A stretch of DNA of 64,000 nucleotides from Octopus sinensis (Eukaryota). Both the position numbers and the translations under genes were made by a program. The notes under the pieces are model-generated. The model ran no database searches and was not told the origin of the DNA. It saw only the letters and a list, made by a program, of their open reading frames with translations. The stretch is from contig NC_043021.1 in assembly GCF_006345805.1 (NCBI RefSeq), positions 10,974,001 through 11,038,000 on the forward strand, read 5' to 3'. Position 1 is the stretch's first letter. Each line of letters starts with the position of its first letter. Shown in pieces: positions 26,170-60,436 of this stretch.

Positions 26170-26376
26170 ACGGCAGCAAGATGGCAGAGTCGTTAGCGAA
26201 GTACTTAGCGGCATTTCATTGGTCCTTATGTTCTGAGTTCAAATTCCACCAAGGTCAACTTTGTCTTTCATCCTTTCGGGGTCGATGAAATAAGTACCGG
26301 TTGAGCACTAGGGTCGATATAATCGACTTAGCCTCCTATCTCGAAGTTGCTGGCCTTGTGCCAAAATTTGAAATCA
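26170..26376 (+). mobile_element. SINE family B, alternative-tail variant
   Basis: GAGTTCAAATTCC B box, body CTTTCATCCTTTCGGGGTCGAT..AAGTACC, tail TTGCTGGCCTTGTGCCAAAATTTGAAATC; similar copy at 27597-27755. Confidence 0.75.
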
Positions 26377-26499
26377 TTACTTTTGATAAATCTATTTCTC
26401 TTTCCTTCTTTGAATATTTGCTGGTCAAAGAAGGAGTTTCCTTTGAACTGTTCTGTCATAGTAGACAACTTGGTGAAGATACCTCACAGAAGTACTCCA

Positions 26500-26913
26500 G
26501 CGGTGAGCTAACAGAAACGTTAGCACACCAGGTGAAATGTGTAGCCATATTTCGTCTGCCATTACGTTCTGAGTTCAAATTCCGCCAAGGTCGACTTTGC
26601 CTTTCATCCTTTCGGGGTCGATTAAATGAGTACCAGTTACGCACTGGGGTCGATATAATCGACTTAATCCGTTTGTCTGTCCTTGTTTGTCCTCTAAGTG
26701 TTTAGCCCCTTGTGGGTAGTAAAGAAATAGGTATTTTGCCAGTCACTACGTTCTGAGTTCAAATTCCACCGAGGTCGACTTTGCCTTTTATCCTTTCGGG
26801 GTCGATTATTTAAGTACCAGTTGCGTACTGGGGTTGATGTAATCGAATTAATCCCTTTGTCTGTCTTTGTTTGTCCCCTCTATATTTAACCCCTTGTGGG
26901 TAGTAAAGAAATA
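26500..26913 (+). mobile_element. SINE family B, head plus two tandem body/tail units
   Basis: GCGGTGAGCTAACAGAAACGTTAGC head; unit repeats after GTAAAGAAATAG|GTATTT. Confidence 0.85.
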
Positions 26914-26919
26914 AGAAGT

Positions 26920-27215
26920 ACTCCAACTCATTTAGAGTTGCTCTGTAGCATCAACTGCCTTACAATGAGGATTATTTTCAACAATCCGCTTGACAGCCCA
27001 AAGACATTTGTCTGAGGGCCCAGGTGAACTCGTATCGGATGCTGTACATTCTTTTCCTTTGCTAGTGAATCGTCCAAACACTCCATTGGCTGACAAAGGA
27101 AATGAGAAAGGTCTAGTGCAATCATATGTTGGCTAAATTCACCCTCAGATTGACCGACAAAACGTCCTCTTTGCCGATCGAATAATTCTTTTACTTTTGG
27201 TGCTTGTGGCATGGC
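26920..27215 (-). pseudogene. Tc1-like transposase N-terminal relic
   Basis: MPQAPKVKELFDRQRGRFVGQSEGEFSQHMIA resembles the Tc1/Tc3 HTH start; a second frame gives GPSDKCLWAVKRIVENNP; frameshifted. Confidence 0.5.
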
Positions 27216-27568: not shown

Positions 27569-28546
27569 CTATAGACAATTAAAATACCATGATCAGTCGT
27601 CCGCTTTTACGTTCTGACTACAAATTCCGCCGAGGTTGACTTTGTCTTTCATCCTTTCGAGGTCGATAAATTAAGTACCAGTTGAGTACTGGGATCGATG
27701 TAATCCACGTAATCACTGCCATGAAATTGCTGACCCTGTGCCAAAATTCGAAATCTGAAATGCAAAAAAAAAGATAATACATTAGCAAGATCGAAACACC
27801 GGATACACCCGGTAGTGTCCGCCCACATAAAATGATATAATGAATGAGGGGTGTCTAGCTACATTTGAGATGTTTGTGTACACACACACACACAAACAAA
27901 CAAACAAACACACATATATACACACACATTCGCGCATGTGCGTGCGCAGGGACGCCTATGGATCACTCTTTAACAGTACTGTAATTACTTCGTTGAGTTC
28001 TCTCGAAGTATTTCTGTCTTAACAAAGACACAAGCTGGGTTGTAACGTTACACATTCACTTCGTTCTATTCGTCTTACAATCACAGTTTTTTTTTGTTTT
28101 TGCTTTTTTTTTTTTGGTAACTTAGGCCTTCTAGATCATCTAGAAACCATGTTGTATTAGCGAGATAGCATTCAGTTTTTACTGATTTATGTTTGTTTGA
28201 AGCTATCTGAGTGAAGTAGGTTGCACATTCGTTGGCAGAAACAAATCTTATCCTAGCAACAATAGATATTTCCATATATTTTTGCGTTTCGTCATTTTTC
28301 TGAGTTCTTTAACTATGATCCCCATTAATTCTGTACTTTAGGGATGGTAAATGGTTCAGGCTCGGCAGGGCAGAATTTTAAGTTTTTAGCGATCAACTTG
28401 TATGCATGCATGCATTAATGTATGTATGTATGTATGCATGTATGTATAGTTAATCCAAACATGAACAAAGAGAAAACACAACAACGTGAGGATGTGGAAC
28501 ATGTATAGTGTTATTGGACGCTCAGAAAGGGAAAGAAAGAAGGAGG

Positions 28547-29564: not shown

Positions 29565-29797
29565 GTTTCTTTATTACCCACAAGGGGCTAAACACAGAGG
29601 GGACAAACAAGGACAGACAAACGGATTAAGTCGATTACATCGACCCCAGTGCGTAACTGGTACTTAAATTATCGACCCCGAAAGGATGAAAGGCAAAGTC
29701 GACCTCGGCGTGATTTGAACTCTCAACGTAACGGCAGACGAAATATAGCTACGCATTTCGCCCTGGCGTGCTAACGTTTCTGCCAGCTTGCCGCCTT
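29565..29797 (-). mobile_element. SINE family B, full length
   Basis: Minus strand: GGCGGCAAGCTGGCAGAAACGTTAGC...GAGTTCAAATCAC...TTTGTCCCCTCTGTGTTTAGCCCCTTGTGGGTAATAAAGAAA. Confidence 0.9.
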
Positions 29798-35779: not shown

Positions 35780-35917
35780 CTATTTCTTTATTACCCACAA
35801 GGGGCTAAATACAGAGGGGACAAACAAGGACAGACATAGGTATTAAGTCGATTACATCGACCCCAGTGCGTAACTGGTACTTAATTTATCGACCCCGAAA
35901 GGATGAAAGGCAAAGTC
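35780..35917 (-). mobile_element. SINE family B, 3' fragment
   Basis: TTTCTTTATTACCCACAAGGGGCTAAA...GGATGAAAGGCAAAGTC. Confidence 0.85.
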
Positions 35918-40413: not shown

Positions 40414-40999
40414 TATATATATAAAGGTCTTTCTTGTTTGTTTCTCGTTTTTATCTCTCATTTACACTTCACTTCAAACCCTGAATACCAAATACCTATT
40501 TCTTTACTACCCACCAGGGGCTAAACACAGAGGGGAGTACCAAATACGTCTCACCTCCATAATTAAGCGAGCGAATGTGGTGAAGAAGGAAGTGGGTCTG
40601 TATAAAGTTGTTGGGGAAGGTAGTAATAGGAGCTAAATACCTTTTAAGTGGCATGCCCTGTGGTGTATAAAAAAAGAAGGGAAAAAAATAAGAAGAAAGA
40701 CGAGATTCCATCATGTCCATCAGGTTGTTTATACTCTCTTTGCTATGTCTCAATAAAATAATAACAAGAACAACAACAGCAATGATAACAGAGCCGAACA
40801 GCAACAGTAGCAAAGCGACAACAATAAACGAACGTTTTATGAATGTTGGACCACCGAGGTAGCAACAAGATAGCCGCAAAAATCAACGGTTCTTAGATAC
40901 ATAAATACACACAGGCGCGCAAGCGCAACCCTACACATATATGTAGACGCACAAAATACATGCATGTGTTTCTATGTGTGTGTCTGTGAGAGTGTGTTA

Positions 41000-46245: not shown

Positions 46246-46331
46246 CGGTACTGAATTAACCATAAAGCAAAATAAGCACGTGCTTAGGGCATCAAAGGAA
46301 AGGAGCACCACAGAAATGGTAAATGATTTGA

Positions 46332-47435
46332 AGGCGGCGAGTTGGCAGAAAGGTTAGCACGCCGGGCGAAATGCTTAGCAGTATTTCGTCTGCTGCTACG
46401 TTCTGAGTTCAAATTCCCCCCGAGGTCGACTTTGCCTTTCATCCTTTCGGGGTCGATTAAATAAGTACCTGTTACGCTCCGGGGTCGATGTAATCGACTC
46501 AATCCGTTTGTCTGTCCTTGTTTGTCTCCTCTGTGTTTAACCCCTTGTGGGTAGTAAAGAAATAGGTATTTCGTCTGCCGCTATGTTCTGAGTTCAAATT
46601 CCGCCGAGGTCGACTTTGCCTTTCATCCTTTCGGGGTCGATTAAATAAGTACCAGTTACGCACTGGGGTCGATGTAATCGACTTAATCCGTTTGTCTGTC
46701 CTCTCTGTGCTTAGCCCCTTGTGGGTAGTAAATAAATAGGTATTTCGTCTGCTGCTACGTTCTGAGTTCAAATTCCGCCGAGGTCGACTTTGCCTTTCAT
46801 CCTTTCCGGGTCGATTAAGTAAGTACCAGTTACGCTCTCGACTCAATCCGTTTGTCCTTGTTTGTCCCCTCTGTGTTTAACCCCTTGTGGGTAGTAAAGA
46901 AATAGGTATTTCGTCTGCCGCTATGTTCTGAGTTCAAATTCCGCCGAGGTCCACTTTGCCTTTCATCCTTTCAGGGTCGATTAAATAAGTACCAGTTACG
47001 CTCTCGACTCAATCCGTTTGTCTGTCCCCTCTGTGTTTAACCCCTTGTGGGTAGTAAAGAAATAAGTATTTCGTCTGCCGTTACGTTCTGAGTTCAAATT
47101 CCGCCGAGGTTGACTTTGCCTTTCATCCTTTCGGGGTCGATTAAATAAGTATCAGTTACGCACTGGGGTCGATGCAATCGACTTAATCCGTTTGTCTGTC
47201 TTTGTTTGTCCTCTCTGTGCTTAGCCCCTTGTGGGTAGTAAATAAATAGATATTTCGTCTGCTGCTACGTTCTGAGTTCAAATTCCGCCAAGGTCGACTT
47301 TGCTTTTCAACCTTTCGTGGTCGATAAATGAAGTACTAGTTACGCACTGGGGTCGATGTAATCGACTTAATCTGTTTGTTGGTCCCTGTTTGTCCCCTCT
47401 GTTTAACCCCTTGTGGGCAAAAAAAAAAAAGAAAT
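46332..47435 (+). mobile_element. SINE family B: one head followed by six tandem body/tail units
   Basis: Units start with (G)TATTTCGTCTG at about 46381, 46567, 46740, 46906, 47066, 47250. Confidence 0.9.
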
Positions 47436-47821
47436 GGTAAAAGATTGTGGCTCAAAAGAAATTACTTTAAATTGACTAAAAAAATTCAAAGTGATTTATA
47501 TGATTAGAAATATAATTTCGAAGTGTTCATGGTACCATAGTGAGGATCTGATCAAAGGCTTTGCCATTAAAAAAGGCCAGAGAAAACTTTTGAAATATGA
47601 ATAAGCTTGATCGTATATAAAAATAAGTATTATTTTCCATATTACTGTTTGTTCTATTTTATTTTGAAAAATATGAATTTATTTTATGGTATTGTTTATA
47701 TTTTGGATTACATATATATGGGGACACCACGATTTTTTAAGTGCTTAGGGCCTCTCTGGGTCTTAATCCGGCCCAGTATACACTTGTCTTCTTAAGATCG
47801 TCACTGGAGTAAGACAAAGCG

Positions 47822-49745: not shown

Positions 49746-50289
49746 ATGAGGAGTACAAAATATATAAGTGGATGATGAGTAAAGCACCAGCACAGCTTCG
49801 ATTATCTGTAATTATCCGTAGATGCAGAAACTACATAGCGGTGGTTGAGGTAACAAGTACTAATAAAATAGATGGAAAAAAACGATTTTATTTAGTACGA
49901 CACATGTTTCGACCCGTTCTGGATCTCTTTGAGTACATAAATAAATAAATAAAAAAAGGATCACAATTTTGTTTTCAATTTTGTTTACAATAATGTTTTC
50001 TTTTGACACATTCTACCAGTATACGAAGTTTCAAATTGTTTAGTTAACTAGAAAATTCCGTCCATCAAACAGAAAAGATCAAAAAAAAAAAAAGTATCAC
50101 TAGAGATTCGGTTTTACGTATCGCTAAATGTCCGTCAACTTTGGGACTGAGTAAAAAAAAAAAACAGAGAACAGTTGAAGCGCGAAAAATTCAAATATGA
50201 ACGTGAAAATTCTAGTTTAAGAGAAAACGACGTAATGTGCCATCACTGTTGTAACTGCCGAGAAAGAAAAGGAAGTAGAAAGGAAGATG

Positions 50290-50672
50290 GGAAGCACTCC
50301 GTCGGTTACGACGACGAGTGTTCCGGTTGATCCGATCAACGGAACAGCCTGCTCGTGAAATTAACGTGTAAGTGGCTGAGCACTCCACAGACACGTCTAC
50401 CCTTGACGTAGTTCTCGGGAATATTCAGCGTGACACAGAGAGTGACAAGGCCAGCCCTTTGAAATACAGGTACAACAGAAACAGGAAGTAAGAGTGAGAG
50501 AAAGTTGTGGTGAAAGAGTACAGCAGGGATCACCACCATCCCTGCCGGAGCCTCGTGGAGCTTTTTTATGTGTTTTTACTCAATAAACACTCACAACGCC
50601 CGGTCTGGGAATCGAAACCACGATCGTACGACAGCGAGTCCGCTGCCCTAACCACTGGGCCATTGCGCCTCC
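50290..50672 (-). mobile_element. SINE family C, full length
   Basis: Minus-strand head GGAGGCGCAATGGCCCAGTGGTTAGGGC...GGTTTCGATTCCC; second copy at 58882-59262. Confidence 0.9.
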
Positions 50673-50870: not shown

Positions 50871-51274
50871 CTGACGGATGTGATGTCGTTTCAGCTCCGA
50901 AGGTAATCATTTATTTTGACCATTTAAAAGTGTATATTGACAAACATTTTGTGCTTAAAAGTTGTGCAACAACATCCACTGTAAACCTTTGATAAATATC
51001 GACACAAAATTTTGCCCCTTGTGGGCAAAATTTAAAAGAAAAAATTCTCATAGCCTTCGTGGTTTCATTTAGCCATTTTTTTCCAAAATGGCCACTGGCC
51101 ACCACGAGGCTGAGTTGCAAGTGAAGCGTGACGCAGAAACAAAAAACAGGATGCTCTGTTAGCATACGCCGAACCTGACAACTCCACCACCACCAACAGC
51201 AACAATACAAAACAAAGGTCGCAAGGCCAAGCACCGTCAACACCATCAGTGAGTCCACCACCACCACCAACACC

Positions 51275-53234
51275 ATGGCAGAATCTGCTACTAAAACTGC
51301 TATCCCTACTAAAGATATCGCCACCAATAACAACATCACCATCACCGCCACCAAAGACCGTGCCGTCAATGCTACTAATACTACCAACACCACCGCCGTC
51401 ACCAAGAACGACAATAACAACAACAACAACGACGACAACAACAATTCCCTTCAACCACTGCTCACTCCATCACCAACAAGTGAAAAAATAACGACGACAA
51501 GCAAACGAAATGTCGAATTTTGCCCTAGTGCAGGACTAAAGTACGCAGGCAATTTTCCACCCCTTCCTACTTGCACGATCGAACCAAACACACCAATTTT
51601 ACAAACTGCAGCCAACAACAACATCACCACAAGCAACAACAATAACAAAACAACAACAAATTTCGCTGAGGCGATTAAAGAAAAAAAAAACAACAATATA
51701 CTTTACGGCTCAACAAATACAGGACACGAACATCAAAATAACAGAATCAGAAGGTATAGTAAAAATAAACATACCAGAAGATATTTTGGAAAATGAAAAA
51801 AGACGAACAATCATTTATAAAATAGTTAACAAAAAAACAAAAATCCCAGAGAAGGCCAACACAAGCAAAATAGAGAAGTGCTTGAAACCCATCTGGGATC
51901 ACAAAGAATATGTAACCTGGTGGAACAAATTTGCCCACATACAAGTCGTTTTCTACACCGAAGAGTTAGCTAGACATTTCTCAACGCTAACTCTTCACTC
52001 AGATGAACTCCAACTTACACCAAGCTATCGGGGACAGAAAGTGACTAAGATCACTCTAAACAATGTCCCCAAAATAGCCAATAGTCTATGGCTTGTAAAG
52101 GCCTTATGCGTAAAAATGGCGAATTATACTATTTTGGAAACCACAGTCACAGAGCATAAAAACTGGGTGGGAAAAAAAATAGAATTTCTTCTACATATAC
52201 ATCATGAAGATATAAAAAAAATACCCACCCAGATATGTGTATCAGACGACCACAAGTTATATGGGGTCGTCGATGGCAGAAGACCACGTTGCTACATATG
52301 CGGCAGTGAGCAACACCTCAAAAAAGACTGCAAATCTGCCGCAAGAAAACAACAGCAACAACAACAGCAGCCGGAAACAAAAACAAATAAACAAGGTTTA
52401 CTACCCACACCACTTTTTGCAGGAACAAACCTCACCAAACAAACAACCACACCAACTGCAGCACCAAGAACAGAAGCAGCATCACCAACAACAACAACCA
52501 AGAATATACCAACTCCCAAACCAAGGACATCTGCCAAAAAGACACCCAGCAAAAATGAAGAAACAATTACAACTCCAAATCCCCACAAAATTGAGACCCT
52601 AAACAACACAACAATACCCACAATCACTCAAACACAAAATACCCAAACCCCACATCCAAAACCGCATACACCACAACCAAACACTCACCAACCAACACCA
52701 ACAACAAAACCAACACAGTCGACAATAGACCCCAATACTTTCCCTCTTCCAGACTCCGCTTCGTCTGATCTGTCATTAGACGAAGAAGACACGGAAGATT
52801 GGCAAATAGCCACAGGGGGGAGAAGAAAAAGGGGAAAAAAAAGAAAAGAAAAAATAACAAACAAAGCGGGAAGATACACCACTCCCGAAACAAAAACATC
52901 CACAGAAAACACACACATCAACACAAACACACCATCATCAAACCCCCCAAAAATGTTGACAGCCATAAACACAAACAACCACGACCTAATGGAACACATT
53001 AGGTCAAACACTAACATTACTGAAAACGACATAAAAACAAGTAACTACCCACACACAACACCACCACAACACATTAAAATAATACACGTGACACAGAACA
53101 CATACAGCACCCTGAAATCTCTTTACCCTGATGCAGTAGGGAGATTTCAAAAGTACTCATCGAAAAAACTGTATAAAAGCCTCATAGAAGAAGACCGTGA
53201 GGTGAAAGACAAAGAACTTTCGAAAAACAAGTAA
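51275..53234 (+). CDS. LINE ORF1 (gag-like nucleic-acid-binding protein), one frameshift at the A10 run 51681-51690
   Basis: ACCATGG start; NFAEAIK motif; removing one A joins to KTTIYFTAQQIQD...ILENEKRR; zinc knuckle CYICGSEQHLKKDC; T/P/Q-rich linker; basic RRKRGKKRK. Confidence 0.85.
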
Positions 53235-53276
53235 CCTTTTCTCTCTCCTTTTCCTTTTTTGCACTTTTATCGGAAC

Positions 53277-56200
53277 ATGCTCAGAATAGGTAGTATAAAT
53301 GTACGTGGCTTGGGGTCGCCTTGGAAACAAGGCTACCTGTTAAATGACATCAAGTCACTAAATCTGAATATCATAGCCATCAGTGAGACCAGACTCCACA
53401 GCTTGCGGGCACTCCAGCACATTTTCGGTACACATTTCAACATTTATTTTTCTCCGTGTCTACCGAGAATGGGCGGAGGGGCACCGCGGTGCTTATCCGG
53501 AAGAGTCTGGATCTCAAAGTAAGAGCAAATTTCCTAGACCCGGAGGGTAGGCTGGTCGTTTTGGATGTCGATGGCAGCAATGAGTGTGCTTTTCGACTGA
53601 TAGCAGTTTATGCTCCGTCCTTAACAGGCCGACCAGATTTCTTTCGACGTCTAGAGTCTTTCATGGAACGTCTCGTCCTTTACTTTTAGTGGGGGATTGG
53701 AATGCCACCCTGGACACGCATCTAGACTACGTGGGCAGAGATAGCAATAGAAGGGGATGCAAATGCCTCAAAGACCTGCTCAGACGTTTCCAACTGTCTG
53801 ACAGGTACCGACTGGACCACCCGAATGTGCCAATGTGGACATGGAGTAACCGCATCGGGTCGTCCAGATCATACTTAGATAGAGTATTCTGTAGGACAAT
53901 AGATAAAAATAGTGTAGGTTGTCCACAATTTCATATAGTCAGTTACACAGATCACAAGTTTGTGACTTGTACACTTGACTTAGATAAGACACATAGGCAG
54001 GGTCCTGGTTACTGGAAACTGAACGCGTCTTTTACAGCACGACAGGTTTACAGGGACCGGATCAGCACATTAGTTAAGAGAGCTTTGACGGGTACCATCA
54101 TCAACAACAGATGGTGGTATGCCCTAAAAAAAGCGATTAAAGCAGAATCAGTCAGATACAGTAGAGCCCTAGCATTAGACCGAAATAGAATAGAGGGAGA
54201 TTAGTTAAGGTTTTAGAAGAGGCACTTAGAACTGGCATCGCGTCCAACGTACTGGCGGCGAGATTGGCCCTCGACCAACACCTCAACGCCAAACACGAGG
54301 GATGCGTTGTCAGAGCTAGGATGCGTGCTCTGAGGAACGAAGGAGTTGGATCCGCCCAAGAGGCCCGAGTGGTGGAGACGCAACGAGGCAACAGAGCCAC
54401 CATCAAGTCTCTTATAGATGAACAGGGGCGCGAATTGCTCGAGCCTAAAAGGATGTGTGGGGTTTTTCAACAACACTTCACCCAACTGTTTGGGACAAGT
54501 GGTGAGTCAGAAAGCAGAGTGGACTTTAGTGCCTACCTGCATGCCTTGCCACGACTCTCAGCAAGAGGAGGTGGAGTCTTGTGAAAAGCCTATCACAGCT
54601 GCGGACGTACAGGATGCGATGGTAGGCTGCGCGAGAGACAAGTCACCAGGCTTGGATGGTCTGCCCTACGAATTTTATTTTCATATGCCAGACTTGTTTG
54701 GAGGCGTCTTGGCAGCTGTCTACTGCAACTGGCAGCAGAACGGGAGTATTCCTGCTTTTGTAAAGCGAGGAGCAGTGGCACTGATCAAGAAAGACCCAAA
54801 CAAGGGGGACGTCATAGATAATTTCAGGCCCATCACTCTGCTCAACGCAGATTTGAAAATTTTGGCCAAGGTGTTAGCCGAGAGGTTGGCGCTTGTCATC
54901 AAGAAACTAATCGACAAGGCGCAAACATGCGCCGTGCCGGGTAGAAGTATTCATGACAACCTCCATCTGATGCGCTACATCATAGACAGGGTAGTTAAAA
55001 ATCCTGGCATGGGTGGGGCGCTGATCAATTTGGATCAATCAAAAGCCTTCGATAGGGTAGACCATCACTACTTGGAGGCTGTCCTCAAAGCGGCTGGTTT
55101 CGGTCCAGTTTTCCGCGGTTGGATCGCTGCCTTATACAGCGGCATCCGCTCAGTAGTTCGCGTAAATGGTCATCTATCCAGACCTTTTAACATCATGCGT
55201 TCGGTTCGTCAGGGATGCCCCCTCTCATCGCTGCTGTATGTACTGACTCTTGAGCCACTACTGCGGAAACTGGCGACGCTGAGGGGCATCCCACGAGAGC
55301 TGGGATGCGGGAGGAGCGTGTCTGCATACGCGGATGACGTCACCGTCATAGTGTCGAGCTACGAGCACATCGAGCTGGTCGGCGAGACACTGAAAGAATA
55401 CGAAGCGGTAACGGGAGCAAAAATTAACCGGGAAAAGTCAGTGGCTTGCGGCTCGGCACCTGGAGAAGCAAGCCCATGCCGTCCAACAGCGTCTCCATCG
55501 TGGGACGCTGGACGGACGGACCGGTTAAATTGCTCGGGGTCTGGTTCGGTCCGGACCTCCAAATGGAGAAGAATTGGGGCGAGATAACGACTAGGGTGGC
55601 TACTCTCACCCAGAAATGGACTGAGAGAAAGCTATCCCTAAAAGGTCGGGCGGAGGTGGCGAACGCGTACATCGCATCCGTCATCGAGTATCGTCTGACC
55701 GTCGTGCCTTGTCCCGACCCTACCATCACCAAACTGGAACGCATACTCTTCCGCTTCTTGTGGAAGGGAAACGTTCCGATGGTTAGGCGATCCATTTGCT
55801 GCCAACACCCGCTAAATGGAGGGCTGGGCATGCCGTGGTTGATGATGCGCAGACATGCGCTGAGACTGCGACATCTCCGGCGCTTCATAGACAACGGTGA
55901 ACAGGGGTGGTCGCCTTTTGTGCGGCGCGCTTTCCCGCAGCTCGTCTCCTTGGACGAACTACAGTCATGGATCAAGCAGAGACCGAGGCTAGGCGAATGG
56001 CACCGCGAGTGTCGCGTTGCTCTCAAGCAACCTGCCGTCCGGGATCGAACTTGTGCGACTCCATCACAACAAAGGCATTCTATAGAGGATTAGTGGAGGG
56101 GAGGTGCGATGACGAACTCGGGCAGAGTCTGGGCGTCGACGAGGAACACCTGACCCGCCTGTTCAGGACAACTTTCGGGCCGGGACCTATGAACAATCAC

Positions 56201-56709
56201 CAAAGATCCCTGGCCTGGCAGTGCTATCGAGAAGCATTACCTGTTCGGGATAAGCTCTACAGACACGGTTCCAGACACACTGGACCGACTTGCCCGAGAT
56301 GCGGTCAGAGCGACGAAACCGTTCTGCACGCACTCGTGCAATGTCCAACCATTTCCGACCTGTGGGCTTATGCCGAACGGCTGCTGTCACGTGTGGGACG
56401 AATCCGCCTATCGGCCGAGTCTATCGTGGGAATTGCTCCGCCCCCTTCCCTCAACCGGGAAGGCAAGGCAGTTTTCATCGTACTGGTGGCCATGGTGAAA
56501 GAATGTGTGTGGTGGACTCGAGCGAAAGGATTAGAGACAAACACTTACCTCTCTGGCCAATCGCTCATCAACTTTTTCAAGTACCACTTGAAAAGGAAGG
56601 TGAGAATGGAGAGGGAAGTTTTGTCTCGCGAAAGATTCAAAAAAAGATGGGTGAATGTTGCAAGATGGTGCGTGCTAGTGACGAAACCATTTTGAGCATG
56701 ATCCTGTAG
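53277..56709 (+). CDS. LINE ORF2 (AP endonuclease, reverse transcriptase, C-terminal zinc finger), about 7 frameshifts
   Basis: SINVRGL, ISETRL, GDWNA, YLDRVF, TDHK; KSPGLDGLPYEFY, FRPITLLNADLKILAK, LDQSKAFDRVDH, VRQGCPLS, AYADDV; CPRCGQSDETVLHALVQC. Confidence 0.95.
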
Positions 56710-57010
56710 ATCGTAAAAAAGAAAGAAAGAGAGCATTTTTGACCTCATGTGTTTATTTCCTCCCTGACTGGGGTTCCCGTGGTCTTTTCTGTAGGCTTTT
56801 CTTCCACGGATGAACCCAATCTTGTTATATCAATGATTACACCATTATTTCTGTGATACACGATTTTCTTTTTTCCTTTTTTTCCTCCTCTTGATCCCTT
56901 TTGATCGCAATCTTACATTTTTTTTTTTTTTTCCACCCTCGAAAAGAAAAGCTCTGCATTTGTATTTGTCCCCTCTGTATTCAGCCCTGTGTGGCTAATA
57001 AAAGAAAGTT

Positions 57011-57092
57011 GTCTGTCTGTCTGTCTGTCTATCATCTGTCTATCATCTGTCTATCATCTATCTATCATCTATCTATCATCTATCTATCTATC

Positions 57093-57139
<47 letters not shown>
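57011..57139. repeat. (TGTC)n/(TATC)n microsatellite, right flank of the LINE
   Basis: Same orientation as the left-flank TATC tract. Confidence 0.95.
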
Positions 57140-57141
<2 letters not shown>

Positions 57142-58141: not shown

Positions 58142-58320
58142 TTTTCTGCTGATACGTTCTGAGTTCAAATTCCGCCGAGGTCGACCTAGCCTTTCATCCT
58201 TTCGGGGTCGATAAATTAAGTACCAGTTACGCTCTGGGGTCGATGTAATCGACTTAATCCGTTTGTTTGTCCTTGTTTGTCCCCCTTTGTGTTTAGCCCT
58301 TGTGGGTAGTAAAGAAATAA
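58142..58320 (+). mobile_element. SINE family B body/tail unit
   Basis: TACGTTCTGAGTTCAAATTCCGCCGAGG...GTGGGTAGTAAAGAAATA. Confidence 0.85.
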
Positions 58321-58881
58321 GTAACACATAAAAACAAGTACTGTGTTTATAAAATAATATGTGTGTGCGTGTCTAAAAATTTCTCTGTGTAAAGTAAGTG
58401 AAACATATTTTCATTTATGGACAAGCATGACCCCCCCCCCCCCACACACACACACACACAAACAAACAAACACACAGAATCTAATAAAAAGGAGTTGGAA
58501 TTACATTCAGCACCTTCCTAACACACATAGAAGACAACGACAAAATAAAGAAAGTAAAAAGAATGACGCAGCGATCAAATATTTGAGGTTGGATCAACTG
58601 AAAAAAGTATATACAACGGCATAAAAGTAAAGGTACGTTTCTGTGAACAAAACAGACTACAAAACCCACAGAACTAGCACAATACAGGGTGGACTTATAC
58701 TGCCACCGATACAATAAAATAAACTTGCGCCAATACAACAAAACTGGTAAAAACAAATGGCTATTTTGTTATGTGAATGGTATGGTTTGTTGTTACAGCA
58801 AATTTCAATCCTGACAGTCTTTGCTACAAGATAAAAAAAATAAACCGTCTCTAAACACTCTCAGAGGTAGAAACAACAAAT

Positions 58882-59262
58882 GGAAGCACTCCGTCGGTTA
58901 CGACGACGAGGGTTCCGGTTGATCCGAATCAACGGAACAGCCTGCTCGTGAAATTAACGTGTAAGTAGCTGAGCACTCCACAGACACGTGTACCCTTAAC
59001 GTAGTTCTCGGAGATATTCAGCGTGACACAGAGAGTGACAAGGCCGGCCCTTTGAAATACAGGTACAACAGAAACGGGAAGTAAGAGTGAGAGAAAGTCG
59101 TGGTGAAAGAGTACAGCAGGGATCGCCACCATCCCCTGCCGGAGCCTCGTGGAGCTTTAGGTGTTTTCGCTTAATAAACACTCACAACGCCCGGTCTGGG
59201 AATCGAAACCGCGATCCTATGACCGCGAGTCCGCTGCCTTAACCACTGGGCCATTGCGCCTC
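58882..59262 (-). mobile_element. SINE family C, full length
   Basis: Near-identical to 50290-50672. Confidence 0.9.
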
Positions 59263-59775: not shown

Positions 59776-60051
59776 ATGAATGGAAGTACAGCACAGTTTC
59801 TGCTTCGCGGATTTTCACTTATCGCGTACCGCGGAGGTGGGATTATGAAGGTAACGCCGGTGATAATCGAAGGATTACTGTATACTAAGTCATTGGACTG
59901 CGGCCGTGCTGGAGCAGTGCCTTAACGGATTTTAGTCGAATGAATCGCCCACAGCCCCAACCCATTTTTTTTTTTAGTCTGGTTTTTTTATTTTATTGTC
60001 TCTTTTATTGAACGTTACGGGGACAGAAAACACACGACCACCGGTTGTCAA

Positions 60052-60436
60052 GAGCTGGCAGAGTCATTATCACTCCGTGCGAAATGCTTAACAGTCTTTC
60101 GTCTGCCGATACGTTCTGAGTTCAAATTCTGCCGAGGCTGACTTTGCCTTTCATCCTTTCGGGGTCGATTAAATAAGTACCAGTTACGCACTGGGGTCTA
60201 TGTAATCGACTTAATCCCTTTGTCTGCCCTTGTTTGTCCCCTCTATGTTTAGCCCCTTGTGGTCAGTAAAGAAATATATATCAACCCCAGTGCGTAACTG
60301 GTACTTATTTAATCGACCTCGAAAGGATGAAAGGCAAAGTCGACCTCGGCGAAATTTGAACTCAGAACGTAGCGGCAGACGAAATACCGCTGAATATTTC
60401 GCCCGGCGTGCTAATGATTCTGCCAGCTCGACGCCC
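60052..60436. mobile_element. Two SINE family B copies tail-to-tail (60052-60275 plus, 60280-60436 minus)
   Basis: Second copy is the reverse complement of the head and body of the first. Confidence 0.85.

What the first reader, a model, noticed from the sequence alone, without database searches (positions are those of the whole stretch)
56958..57008. Tx1/L1-clade LINE shares its 3' terminal ~48 nt with SINE family B: a candidate SINE/LINE partner pair
Seen: LINE end TTGTATTTGTCCCCTCTGTATTCAGCCCTGTGTGGCTAATAAAAGAAA versus SINE B end TTGTTTGTCCCCTCTGTGTTTAGCCCCTTGTGGGTAATAAAGAAA (29565-29610 minus; also ~46858-46903). Both can form a small stem-loop (AGCC/GGCT; GCCC/GGGT) just before an AAAGAAA end, with no poly(A) tail. 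Established: stringent LINEs (L2, CR1, RTE) recognise a 3' stem-loop that partner SINEs copy, whereas mammalian L1 relies on poly(A). Inference: this Tx1-type ORF2p is a stringent-type enzyme mobilising a very abundant SINE. I do not know whether this pair has been reported.
Basis: partly seen in the sequence, partly recalled or inferred. Interest (0 to 1): 0.8.

Follow-up and report, generated by a model that had tools for sequence, protein, structure and literature searches.

The report
Octopus SINE borrows Tx1 LINE tail
In what is likely an octopus genome, an abundant short jumping element and a long, enzyme-coding one end in the same 43-base tail, which other copies of the long element also carry; the short one therefore likely hijacks the copying enzyme of this lineage, a partnership I found described for this enzyme group only in plants and algae.

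Summary
The LINE's last 43 nt (56965-57007) match the tails of 13 SINE B units in the window at 74-88% (0 of 1000 shuffles).

In four public runs, contigs bridge the LINE 3' UTR into this tail, and 119 listed contigs carry LINE-type, not SINE-type, sequence upstream of it. The tail belongs to the LINE family.

The LINE has the L1/Tx1-type layout; strict Tx1 membership was not tested. A sister SINE has the same body but another tail, which points to tail swapping.

Against: LINE copies are mostly followed by (TATC)n, but 0 of 13 SINE tails are. The hairpin is compatible in both but folds no better than shuffles. The driver may be a sister or ancestral subfamily, and stringent recognition is inferred only.

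Eight paper searches found no animal L1/Tx1 tail-sharing pair; Repbase and Dfam could not be checked. This scan had not noted this DNA before. Verdict: a new variant of a known kind.

The parts
50871..57007 (+). Near full-length L1/Tx1-type LINE, decayed in this copy; the 5' boundary is inferred from the end of the upstream (TATC)n tract
   Evidence: only copy in the window
51540..53234 (+). ORF1 main frame with one CCHC zinc knuckle; its N-terminal part probably lies in frame 51179-51796
   Evidence: Pfam zf-CCHC E 0.0022, below the curated cut-off; 48% identical over 185 aa to an O. bimaculoides protein; Atlas neighbours are zf-CCHC and ZCCHC3-like RNA-binding clusters
53277..56709 (+). ORF2: APE endonuclease, reverse transcriptase, C-terminal zinc-binding motif; at least six frame changes in this copy
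   Evidence: Pfam Exo_endo_phos, RVT_1, zf-RVT; tblastn with the 1111-aa relative P0130, 43-71% identity over successive frames
56710..57007 (+). LINE 3' UTR, about 300 nt
   Evidence: covered by high-depth contigs in 4 of 4 runs
56965..57007 (+). Terminal tail shared with SINE B; predicted bulged hairpin 56974-57005 (3+4+4 pairs, loop CUGUGU), ending AAAGAAA
50750..50870 (.). (TATC)n tract 5' of the LINE
57016..57140 (.). (TGTC)n/(TATC)n tract 3' of the LINE; on the minus strand it is the (GATA)n run after the 3' end of a SINE A copy ending at 57140
51007..51033 (+). Perfect 11-bp hairpin upstream of ORF1 with the same CUUGU loop and 12-nt core as the SINE B tail
   Evidence: z -3.7; exact 12-mer match; 0 of 300 shuffles
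29566..29795 (-). SINE B, full length (about 230 nt); tail 37/43 identical to the LINE
26500..26911 (+). SINE B dimer (full plus 5'-truncated unit) between 12-bp direct repeats at 26488-26499 and 26914-26925
46333..47428 (+). SINE B six-unit tandem array between 17-bp direct repeats (16/17) at 46312-46328 and 47430-47446
35783..35917 (-). 5'-truncated SINE B; best tail match to the LINE (38/43)
40499..40536 (-). 38-nt 5'-truncated SINE B tail between 13-bp direct repeats (12/13) at 40535-40547 and 40483-40495
58145..58317 (+). 5'-truncated SINE B
60047..60274 (+). SINE B, near full length, abutting an inverted tailless copy at 60277-60435
26172..26385 (+). Sister SINE (B2): same head and body as SINE B, different tail with a UGGC/GCCA stem around the same CUUGU loop; second copy at 27597-27760

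Best explanation
The last 43 bases of this L1/Tx1-type LINE family are shared with SINE B, which likely acquired them from this LINE lineage and is likely copied in trans by its ORF2 protein, predicted to grip a small bulged RNA hairpin in the tail instead of a poly(A). Shown: the shared tail, its linkage to the 3' UTR in other LINE copies, the LINE's domain layout, target duplications and 5' truncation of SINE copies, and a sister SINE with the same body and another tail. Inferred: direction of transfer (LINE to SINE, by template switch), hairpin recognition, and target-primed reverse transcription by this lineage. The copies that did most of the SINE copying were probably an older or sister subfamily rather than exactly the (TATC)n-associated one seen here.
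For: Tail identity 74-88% to 13 of 13 SINE B tails, at the terminus of both elements; 0 of 1000 shuffles; contigs X15-16 (56877-56993, depth 720) and X2-22 (56869-57002, depth 98) bridge UTR and tail; two low-depth X2 contigs with 9 differences each do too. 119 contigs in the listed rows have loose ends before 56964-56967 whose consensus reads like the LINE UTR. In X2, contigs from ORF2 end to tail have like depth (102, 101, 83, 98). No SINE-type letter reaches 8% in the tail. SINE B and B2 part just after the shared body, and SINE A has a similar pre-tail block with a third tail (by eye). The same three-tier hairpin is the predicted minimum-energy fold for the LINE and for 3 of 13 SINE tails. 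Under that model 84 of 88 cells pair in 8 distinct SINE tails and 11 of 11 in the LINE. Direct repeats of 12-17 bp flank 3 of 7 SINE B sites (control: 7 of 500 random flank pairs reach 12).
Against: Insertion context differs: 156 listed contigs end behind 57002 with a (TATC)n consensus (agreement 0.61-0.80), whereas 0 of 13 SINE B tails are followed by such a tract; PMC4494074 says target choice is set mainly by the endonuclease and uses shared targets to assign SINEU to Tx1-Mar. Tail folds are not better than shuffles. RNAalifold on 11 tails gave 3 pairs and no compensatory change. The one compensatory pair between LINE and SINE appears only if the stems are aligned with a one-base shift. Among SINE copies, 5 variant pair types keep pairing and 4 break it. 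The loops differ (CUGUGU vs CUUGU). 391 loose-end rows were not shown. No genome was available to look for a better-matching LINE.
Confidence: 0.68

Rival explanations
1. This exact (TATC)n-associated subfamily is the direct driver of SINE B. Its apparent microsatellite preference would come from RNA-DNA pairing of read-through (UAUC)n ends, which SINE transcripts lack. This is a sub-case of the best explanation.
For: Two SINE copies (35783, 29566) match the tail at 86-88%; the 29566 copy continues with the same next letters as the LINE loose-end consensus of X10 and X8. SINE copies lie 2.9-9.6% (mean 6.1%, 12 copies) from their window majority, and most laid LINE contigs are 90-99% alike, so activity periods could overlap.
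Against: Most SINE B tails differ from the LINE at 8-11 of 43 positions; 0 of 13 lie before (TATC)n; published Tx1 work ties targets to the endonuclease (PMC4494074).
Confidence: 0.3
2. The transfer ran the other way: an ancestor of this LINE family captured the 3' end of SINE B (or both took it from a third element), and SINE B is moved by an unseen LINE of another clade.
For: Nothing seen here fixes the direction; an A-rich stretch just upstream of the tail (56941-56950) could be an older LINE end; a second SINE-like hairpin lies at 51007-51033, so this lineage may pick up such ends.
Against: The SINE lineage visibly swaps tails on a constant body. The tail is kept in diverged LINE copies, and summed contig depth is far higher over it than over the mid-UTR (X10: 121k-321k against mostly 4k-16k; the tool warns that depth is not copy number). 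Published pairs run LINE to SINE (PMC3747384).
Confidence: 0.17
3. The SINE tail is a relic of the LINE, but recognition is relaxed: the enzyme needs only the A-rich AAAGAAA end or target pairing, and the hairpin is incidental.
For: Weak folding statistics; two target duplications begin with AGAA, overlapping the terminal motif.
Against: A CUUGU or CUGUGU loop closed by 4 or more pairs occurs 14 times in the window: 9 SINE B tails, 1 SINE B2 tail, twice in the LINE and twice in TG repeats, against 0.34 expected in the shuffled non-satellite part; four different stems surround the loop. The SINE B hits share descent and are not independent.
Confidence: 0.13
4. A SINE fragment was inserted behind the LINE at this one locus, or the match is chance.
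For: A 38-nt truncated SINE B tail does exist on its own at 40499-40536.
Against: Bridging contigs and 119 LINE-type upstream loose ends in 4 of 4 runs; shuffles 0 of 1000.
Confidence: 0.02

Closest known systems
Maize/sorghum ZmSINE2, ZmSINE3 with LINE1-1_ZM; Chlamydomonas SINEX-3_CR with L1-1_CR (PMC3472496 part 1; PMC3747384 passages and Table 1)
   Same: L1-clade LINE sharing a roughly 50-nt hairpin-forming 3' end with tRNA-type SINEs; tail better kept than the rest of the element.
   Different: Those are plant and algal, end in poly(A) or poly(T), and the maize stems show compensatory changes. Here the host is an animal, the end is AAAGAAA without poly(A), and covariation is not established.
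Crocodilian SINEU with Tx1-Mar (PMC4494074 passages)
   Same: A SINE assigned to a Tx1-type LINE in an animal; tandem SINE insertions occur.
   Different: SINEU has snRNA heads and poly(A), no LINE was found sharing the SINEU-1 3' end, and the link rests on a shared target. Here the tail is shared and the target is not.
Kibi, Koshi and crocodilian microsatellite-targeting Tx1 families (PMC4494074 passages)
   Same: Tx1-type elements found at microsatellites: (TC)n, (TTC)n, (TTCC)n, (TTTC)n.
   Different: The repeat here is (TATC)n; that paper's main text has no GATA or TATC string. No tree with those families was built.
Stringent SINE/LINE pairs of L2, CR1 and RTE clades, e.g. eel UnaSINE/UnaL2 (PMC3747384 Table 1)
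   Same: Shared 3' tail with a predicted stem-loop and no poly(A).
   Different: Different LINE clade; there the dependence was shown by experiment.
Octopus SINEs OK, OR1, OR2 (Ohshima and Okada 1994; seen only as a citation, paper not held)
   Same: Octopus tRNA-derived SINEs; SINE B may be one of them or a 'tRNA-Deu' family named in PMC8967140.
   Different: Could not be compared; no partner LINE for an octopus SINE is listed in PMC3747384 Table 1.

Membership tests
Stringent SINE/LINE partner pair | Shared sequence at the 3' terminus of both elements | tested here: met
   43 nt, 74-88% to 13 of 13 tails; 0 of 1000 shuffles
Stringent SINE/LINE partner pair | Tail is intrinsic to the LINE family, not to one locus | tested here: met
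   Bridging contigs in X15 and X2; LINE-type upstream loose ends in 4 of 4 runs
Stringent SINE/LINE partner pair | Conserved 3' stem-loop with compensatory changes | tested here: inconclusive
   Same fold possible and four stems around one loop, but z-scores are weak and RNAalifold shows no covariation
Stringent SINE/LINE partner pair | Tail required for cis and trans retrotransposition | not testable with these tools
   Needs a cell assay
Partner of this exact LINE subfamily | Same insertion-site preference in SINE and LINE | tested here: not met
   LINE ends mostly followed by (TATC)n; 0 of 13 SINE B tails are; window sample only
Partner of this exact LINE subfamily | Overlapping ages | tested here: inconclusive
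   SINE copies 2.9-9.6% from the window majority; LINE contigs range from 99+ to under 90% alike; not a genome-wide dating
L1/Tx1 group LINE | Two ORFs; ORF2 with APE endonuclease, RT and C-terminal zinc motif | tested here: met
   relative P0130 aligns with human L1 ORF2p over residues 38-829 (E 1e-50) against 4e-22 for R2; no CR1, L2 or RTE chain appeared among the 10 hits, so those clades were not compared
Tx1 clade | RT groups with named Tx1 elements in a tree | not testable with these tools
   No named Tx1 sequence came back
Tx1 clade | ORF1 with CCHC zinc knuckle (feature recalled, not from a call) | tested here: inconclusive
   zf-CCHC E 0.0022, under the curated cut-off; Atlas 0.90-0.92 to zf-CCHC clusters
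Tx1 clade | Target sequence preference (common in the clade, PMC4494074) | tested here: inconclusive
   (TATC)n on both sides of the window copy and behind most listed 3' ends; 5' flanks of other copies not seen, so a self-made repeat tail is not excluded
tRNA-derived SINE | Short, dispersed, non-coding, with target duplications and 5' truncation | tested here: met
   About 230 nt, 7 sites in 64 kb, clear duplications at 3 of 7
tRNA-derived SINE | Pol III A and B boxes in a tRNA-like head | tested here: inconclusive
   Loose A-box pattern in 6 of 6 heads, strict B-box in 1 of 6 (patterns recalled); ARAGORN and Rfam found no tRNA
MetaSINE | 66-bp Meta domain behind the head | tested here: not met
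   By eye, no likeness to BivaMeta-SINE1 and BivaMD-SINE1 in the supplement of PMC4824008; the other MetaSINE sequences are in figures that are not held
Deu/Nin-domain SINE | Deu or Nin central domain | not testable with these tools
   Resemblance is recalled only; motif searches found no reference

The most novel reading that the evidence does not exclude
This is the first animal L1-superfamily (Tx1-type) retrotransposon with stringent, hairpin-based RNA recognition and a tail-sharing SINE. A group of octopus Tx1-like enzymes reads a short CU(U/G)GU-loop hairpin, two major SINE families captured versions of it, and the LINE carries a second copy near its 5' end. The SINE escapes the LINE's (TATC)n targeting, so template RNA rather than endonuclease alone would set the target.
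Probability: 0.3. Interest if true: 0.78.

Novelty: new variant of a known kind. Interest (0 to 1): 0.56.

Why it matters
[quoted passage not shown] An animal L1/Tx1-type case without poly(A) would give an independent, testable lineage for that question, and a natural contrast to the solved human L1 ORF2p structures. It would also name a candidate engine for part of the octopus SINE expansion (SINEs are 11.6% of the O. vulgaris assembly, PMC13282606). If Repbase or Dfam already note the pair, the value drops to confirmation.

Tried and rejected
No own genome was held, so no genome-wide copy survey was possible.

Searches for LINE relatives with flanking DNA found nothing in metagenome, prokaryote-genome or viral contigs. 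DNA-pattern scans for the tail and the SINE body found nothing either. These collections are not animal genomes, so the blanks say nothing.

No RNA holder was listed on record; X15 is only guessed to be RNA, so I make no claim on expression. Summed contig depth was not used as copy number.

Rfam gave only microsatellite-driven matches under the gathering scores. ARAGORN found no tRNA. RNAalifold gave no covariation.

My first guess that SINE B is a MetaSINE was dropped. Attempts to get named Tx1 references failed, so no tree was built.

No clear target duplication was found at 60047, 58145 and 35783, nor at the two B2 copies; the 14-bp one at 29566 lies in low-complexity DNA and was not counted. 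The LINE's own duplication cannot be read inside the repeat tracts.

SINE A, SINE C and SINE B2 do not share the LINE 3' tail (scores 23, 16, 15 and 14 against 54).

The 1994 octopus SINE paper is not held, and one supplement file of PMC4758252 could not be searched; both may bear on the SINE's name.

Full report
Observation. The LINE end (56960-57007) and the SINE end (29566-29610, minus) read as the first stage quoted them. BLAST of the last 421 nt of the LINE against the window returned SINE B tails as its ten best non-self hits, all confined to 56953-57020 (best E 6.7e-9). The 43-nt block 56965-57007 is 74-88% identical to all 13 SINE B tails in the window, which lie at 7 insertion sites. 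Three whole SINE copies scored 54, 39 and 34 against the LINE 3' UTR, and 0 of 1000 dinucleotide shuffles reached each score.

Host. No genome was held. The RT frame hits an Argonauta protein at 66% and a cuttlefish protein at 52%. The ORF2 end matches an O. bimaculoides protein at 92% over 37 residues. The host is therefore likely an Octopus species (inference).

The LINE. It spans about 50871-57007. ORF1 has a weak zinc-knuckle hit; ORF2 starts at 53277 and holds endonuclease, RT and zf-RVT domains. It is broken by at least six frame changes against a 1111-aa relative. One small indel near the ORF2 end is absent from most contig depth in 4 of 4 runs, so some breaks may be copy-specific or assembly errors. 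The relative aligns with human L1 ORF2p over about 790 residues (E 1e-50), far better than with R2. This places it in the L1/Tx1 group. Tx1 proper rests on the zinc knuckle (recalled feature) and the microsatellite context; no named Tx1 sequence was obtained, so no tree was built.

Key test: do other copies carry the tail? One search listed 20 of 24 runs holding 68-77% of the element's words. Four were laid on 56480-57020 at 88% likeness. X15 contig 16 (56877-56993, depth 720) and X2 contig 22 (56869-57002, depth 98) bridge UTR and tail with at least 31 letters on each side. Two further X2 contigs (depth 3.9 and 8.2, 9 differences each) do the same and look like distinct copies. Loose ends before 56964-56967 (X10 23+13, X8 43+30, X15 7, X2 1+2 contigs) have a consensus that reads like the LINE UTR, not the SINE body. 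No SINE-type letter reaches the 8% listing limit in the tail. Limits: 391 loose-end rows and 5664 pieces were not shown, no piece spans the whole stretch, and none of the 8 listed pieces of X10 or of X8 reaches the tail. The single-locus explanation is rejected.

The SINE. SINE B is about 230 nt, with a loose A-box in 6 of 6 heads and a strict B-box in 1 of 6 (recalled patterns); no tRNA was called. Twelve copies lie 2.9-9.6% from their window majority. Direct repeats of 12, 17 and 13 bp flank 3 of 7 sites; 7 of 500 random flank pairs reach 12. One of the three is a 38-nt truncated tail. A sister family (B2, 2 copies) shares head and body and then takes another tail. SINE A has a similar pre-tail block followed by a third tail (by eye). 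Tail exchange on a constant body is what PMC4824008 proposes for SINE survival (section 9). SINE B did not look like the two bivalve MetaSINEs in that paper's supplement (by eye).

Structure. The LINE tail folds as a bulged hairpin of 3+4+4 pairs; 3 of 13 SINE tails give the same minimum-energy fold. Under that model 84 of 88 cells pair in 8 distinct SINE tails (2 of 13 tails with indels were left out, 3 were duplicates) and 11 of 11 in the LINE. But z-scores are -1.39 to -0.31, RNAalifold on 11 tails finds no covariation, and variant pairs split 5 kept to 4 broken. The better hint is across families: a CUUGU or CUGUGU loop is closed by four different stems in SINE B, SINE B2, the LINE tail and an 11-bp hairpin at 51007-51033. 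That last hairpin matches the SINE B tail beyond chance (0 of 300 shuffles) and the B2 tail weakly (11 of 300). Its role is unexplained.

Target mismatch. The window LINE has (TATC)n on both sides, and the downstream tract is also the (GATA)n run after a minus-strand SINE A. Behind 57002, 60, 77, 14 and 5 contigs continue with a (TATC)n consensus (agreement 0.61-0.80). None of 13 SINE B tails is followed by such a tract. PMC4494074 (passages) describes microsatellite-targeting Tx1 families and assigns SINEU to Tx1-Mar by shared targets. The mismatch is the main reason to doubt that this exact subfamily drove SINE B.

Mechanism. Most likely (0.68) SINE B took its tail from this LINE lineage by template switch, and ORF2p of the lineage binds the tail hairpin, nicks DNA and reverse-transcribes the SINE RNA at the nick. 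All of these steps are inferred from established SINE/LINE biology. I put about 0.3 on this exact subfamily as driver, 0.17 on reverse or third-party transfer, 0.13 on a relic tail with relaxed recognition, and 0.02 on a local accident.

What is in print. PMC3472496 (part 1 of 3) reports 58 SINE/LINE pairs with only three L1-tailed SINEs. Table 1 of PMC3747384 lists L1 tails only for maize, sorghum and Chlamydomonas, with no Tx1 and no octopus row. PMC4494074 found no LINE sharing the SINEU-1 3' end. Octopus repeat papers mention L1-Tx1 and SINE abundance but, in the passages returned, no partner: PMC13282606 (part 1 of 3 and passages), PMC8967140, PMC9115989 (no mention of Tx1). Passages of PMC4758252, PMC10294476, PMC5786205, PMC5804259 and PMC3531059 added nothing on this pair. 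Eight searches found no report of it. The library lacks most subscription papers, and Repbase, Dfam and SINEBase sequences could not be queried. Earlier scan notes held nothing on this DNA and one loosely related note on another genome.

Verdict. A real, family-level shared tail between an L1/Tx1-type LINE and an abundant octopod SINE. It is a known kind of partnership in a clade and kingdom where I found no earlier case. Stringent recognition and the exact driver remain to be shown. Interest 0.56.

Noticed in passing
window 51007-51040: Perfect 11-bp hairpin with the SINE B loop, followed by an A-rich run like an element end, inside the stretch 5' of ORF1. It could be a 5' UTR motif or the captured 3' end of a sister element.
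   Followed up: partly
window 51050-51112: Second strong hairpin upstream of ORF1 (z -4.9); no Rfam match at E under 1.
   Followed up: no
window 3360-25922: A 22.5-kb satellite of 130 copies of a 174-bp unit (95% matches) that resembles the head of SINE A.
   Followed up: no
window 46333-47428 and 26500-26911: SINE B tandem units join at nearly the same internal site, and the lone truncated copy at 40499 has a target duplication starting with the same six letters; SINE B may insert into itself.
   Followed up: partly
window 56765-56817: A second block of the 3' UTR with raised contig depth that can form a stem-loop.
   Followed up: no
SINE B tails, e.g. 46526-46562: The three recurrent stem differences are all A/G at positions opposite U, which keep pairing; transitions or A-to-I editing of master RNAs could explain this (speculation).
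   Followed up: no
protein P0126 (O. bimaculoides): An annotated protein joins this family's ORF2 end to an ORF1-like region, which suggests neighbouring copies merged by gene prediction.
   Followed up: no
window 56605-56966 (run X15): One contig skips 360 nt and joins the ORF2 end to the tail through 25 other letters: possibly a short-UTR or deleted relative.
   Followed up: no
window 50272-50671 and 58864-59262 (minus): A third SINE-like family (92% between two copies) with a tRNA-like head and an unrelated tail.
   Followed up: no
window 60047-60435: A SINE B copy directly abuts an inverted, tailless copy.
   Followed up: no
proteins P0125 and P0137: A close relative of this LINE's ORF2 (P0125, 66% over the C-terminal 200 aa) is filed under a Herbaspirillum MAG, likely host DNA in a bacterial bin.
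   Followed up: no
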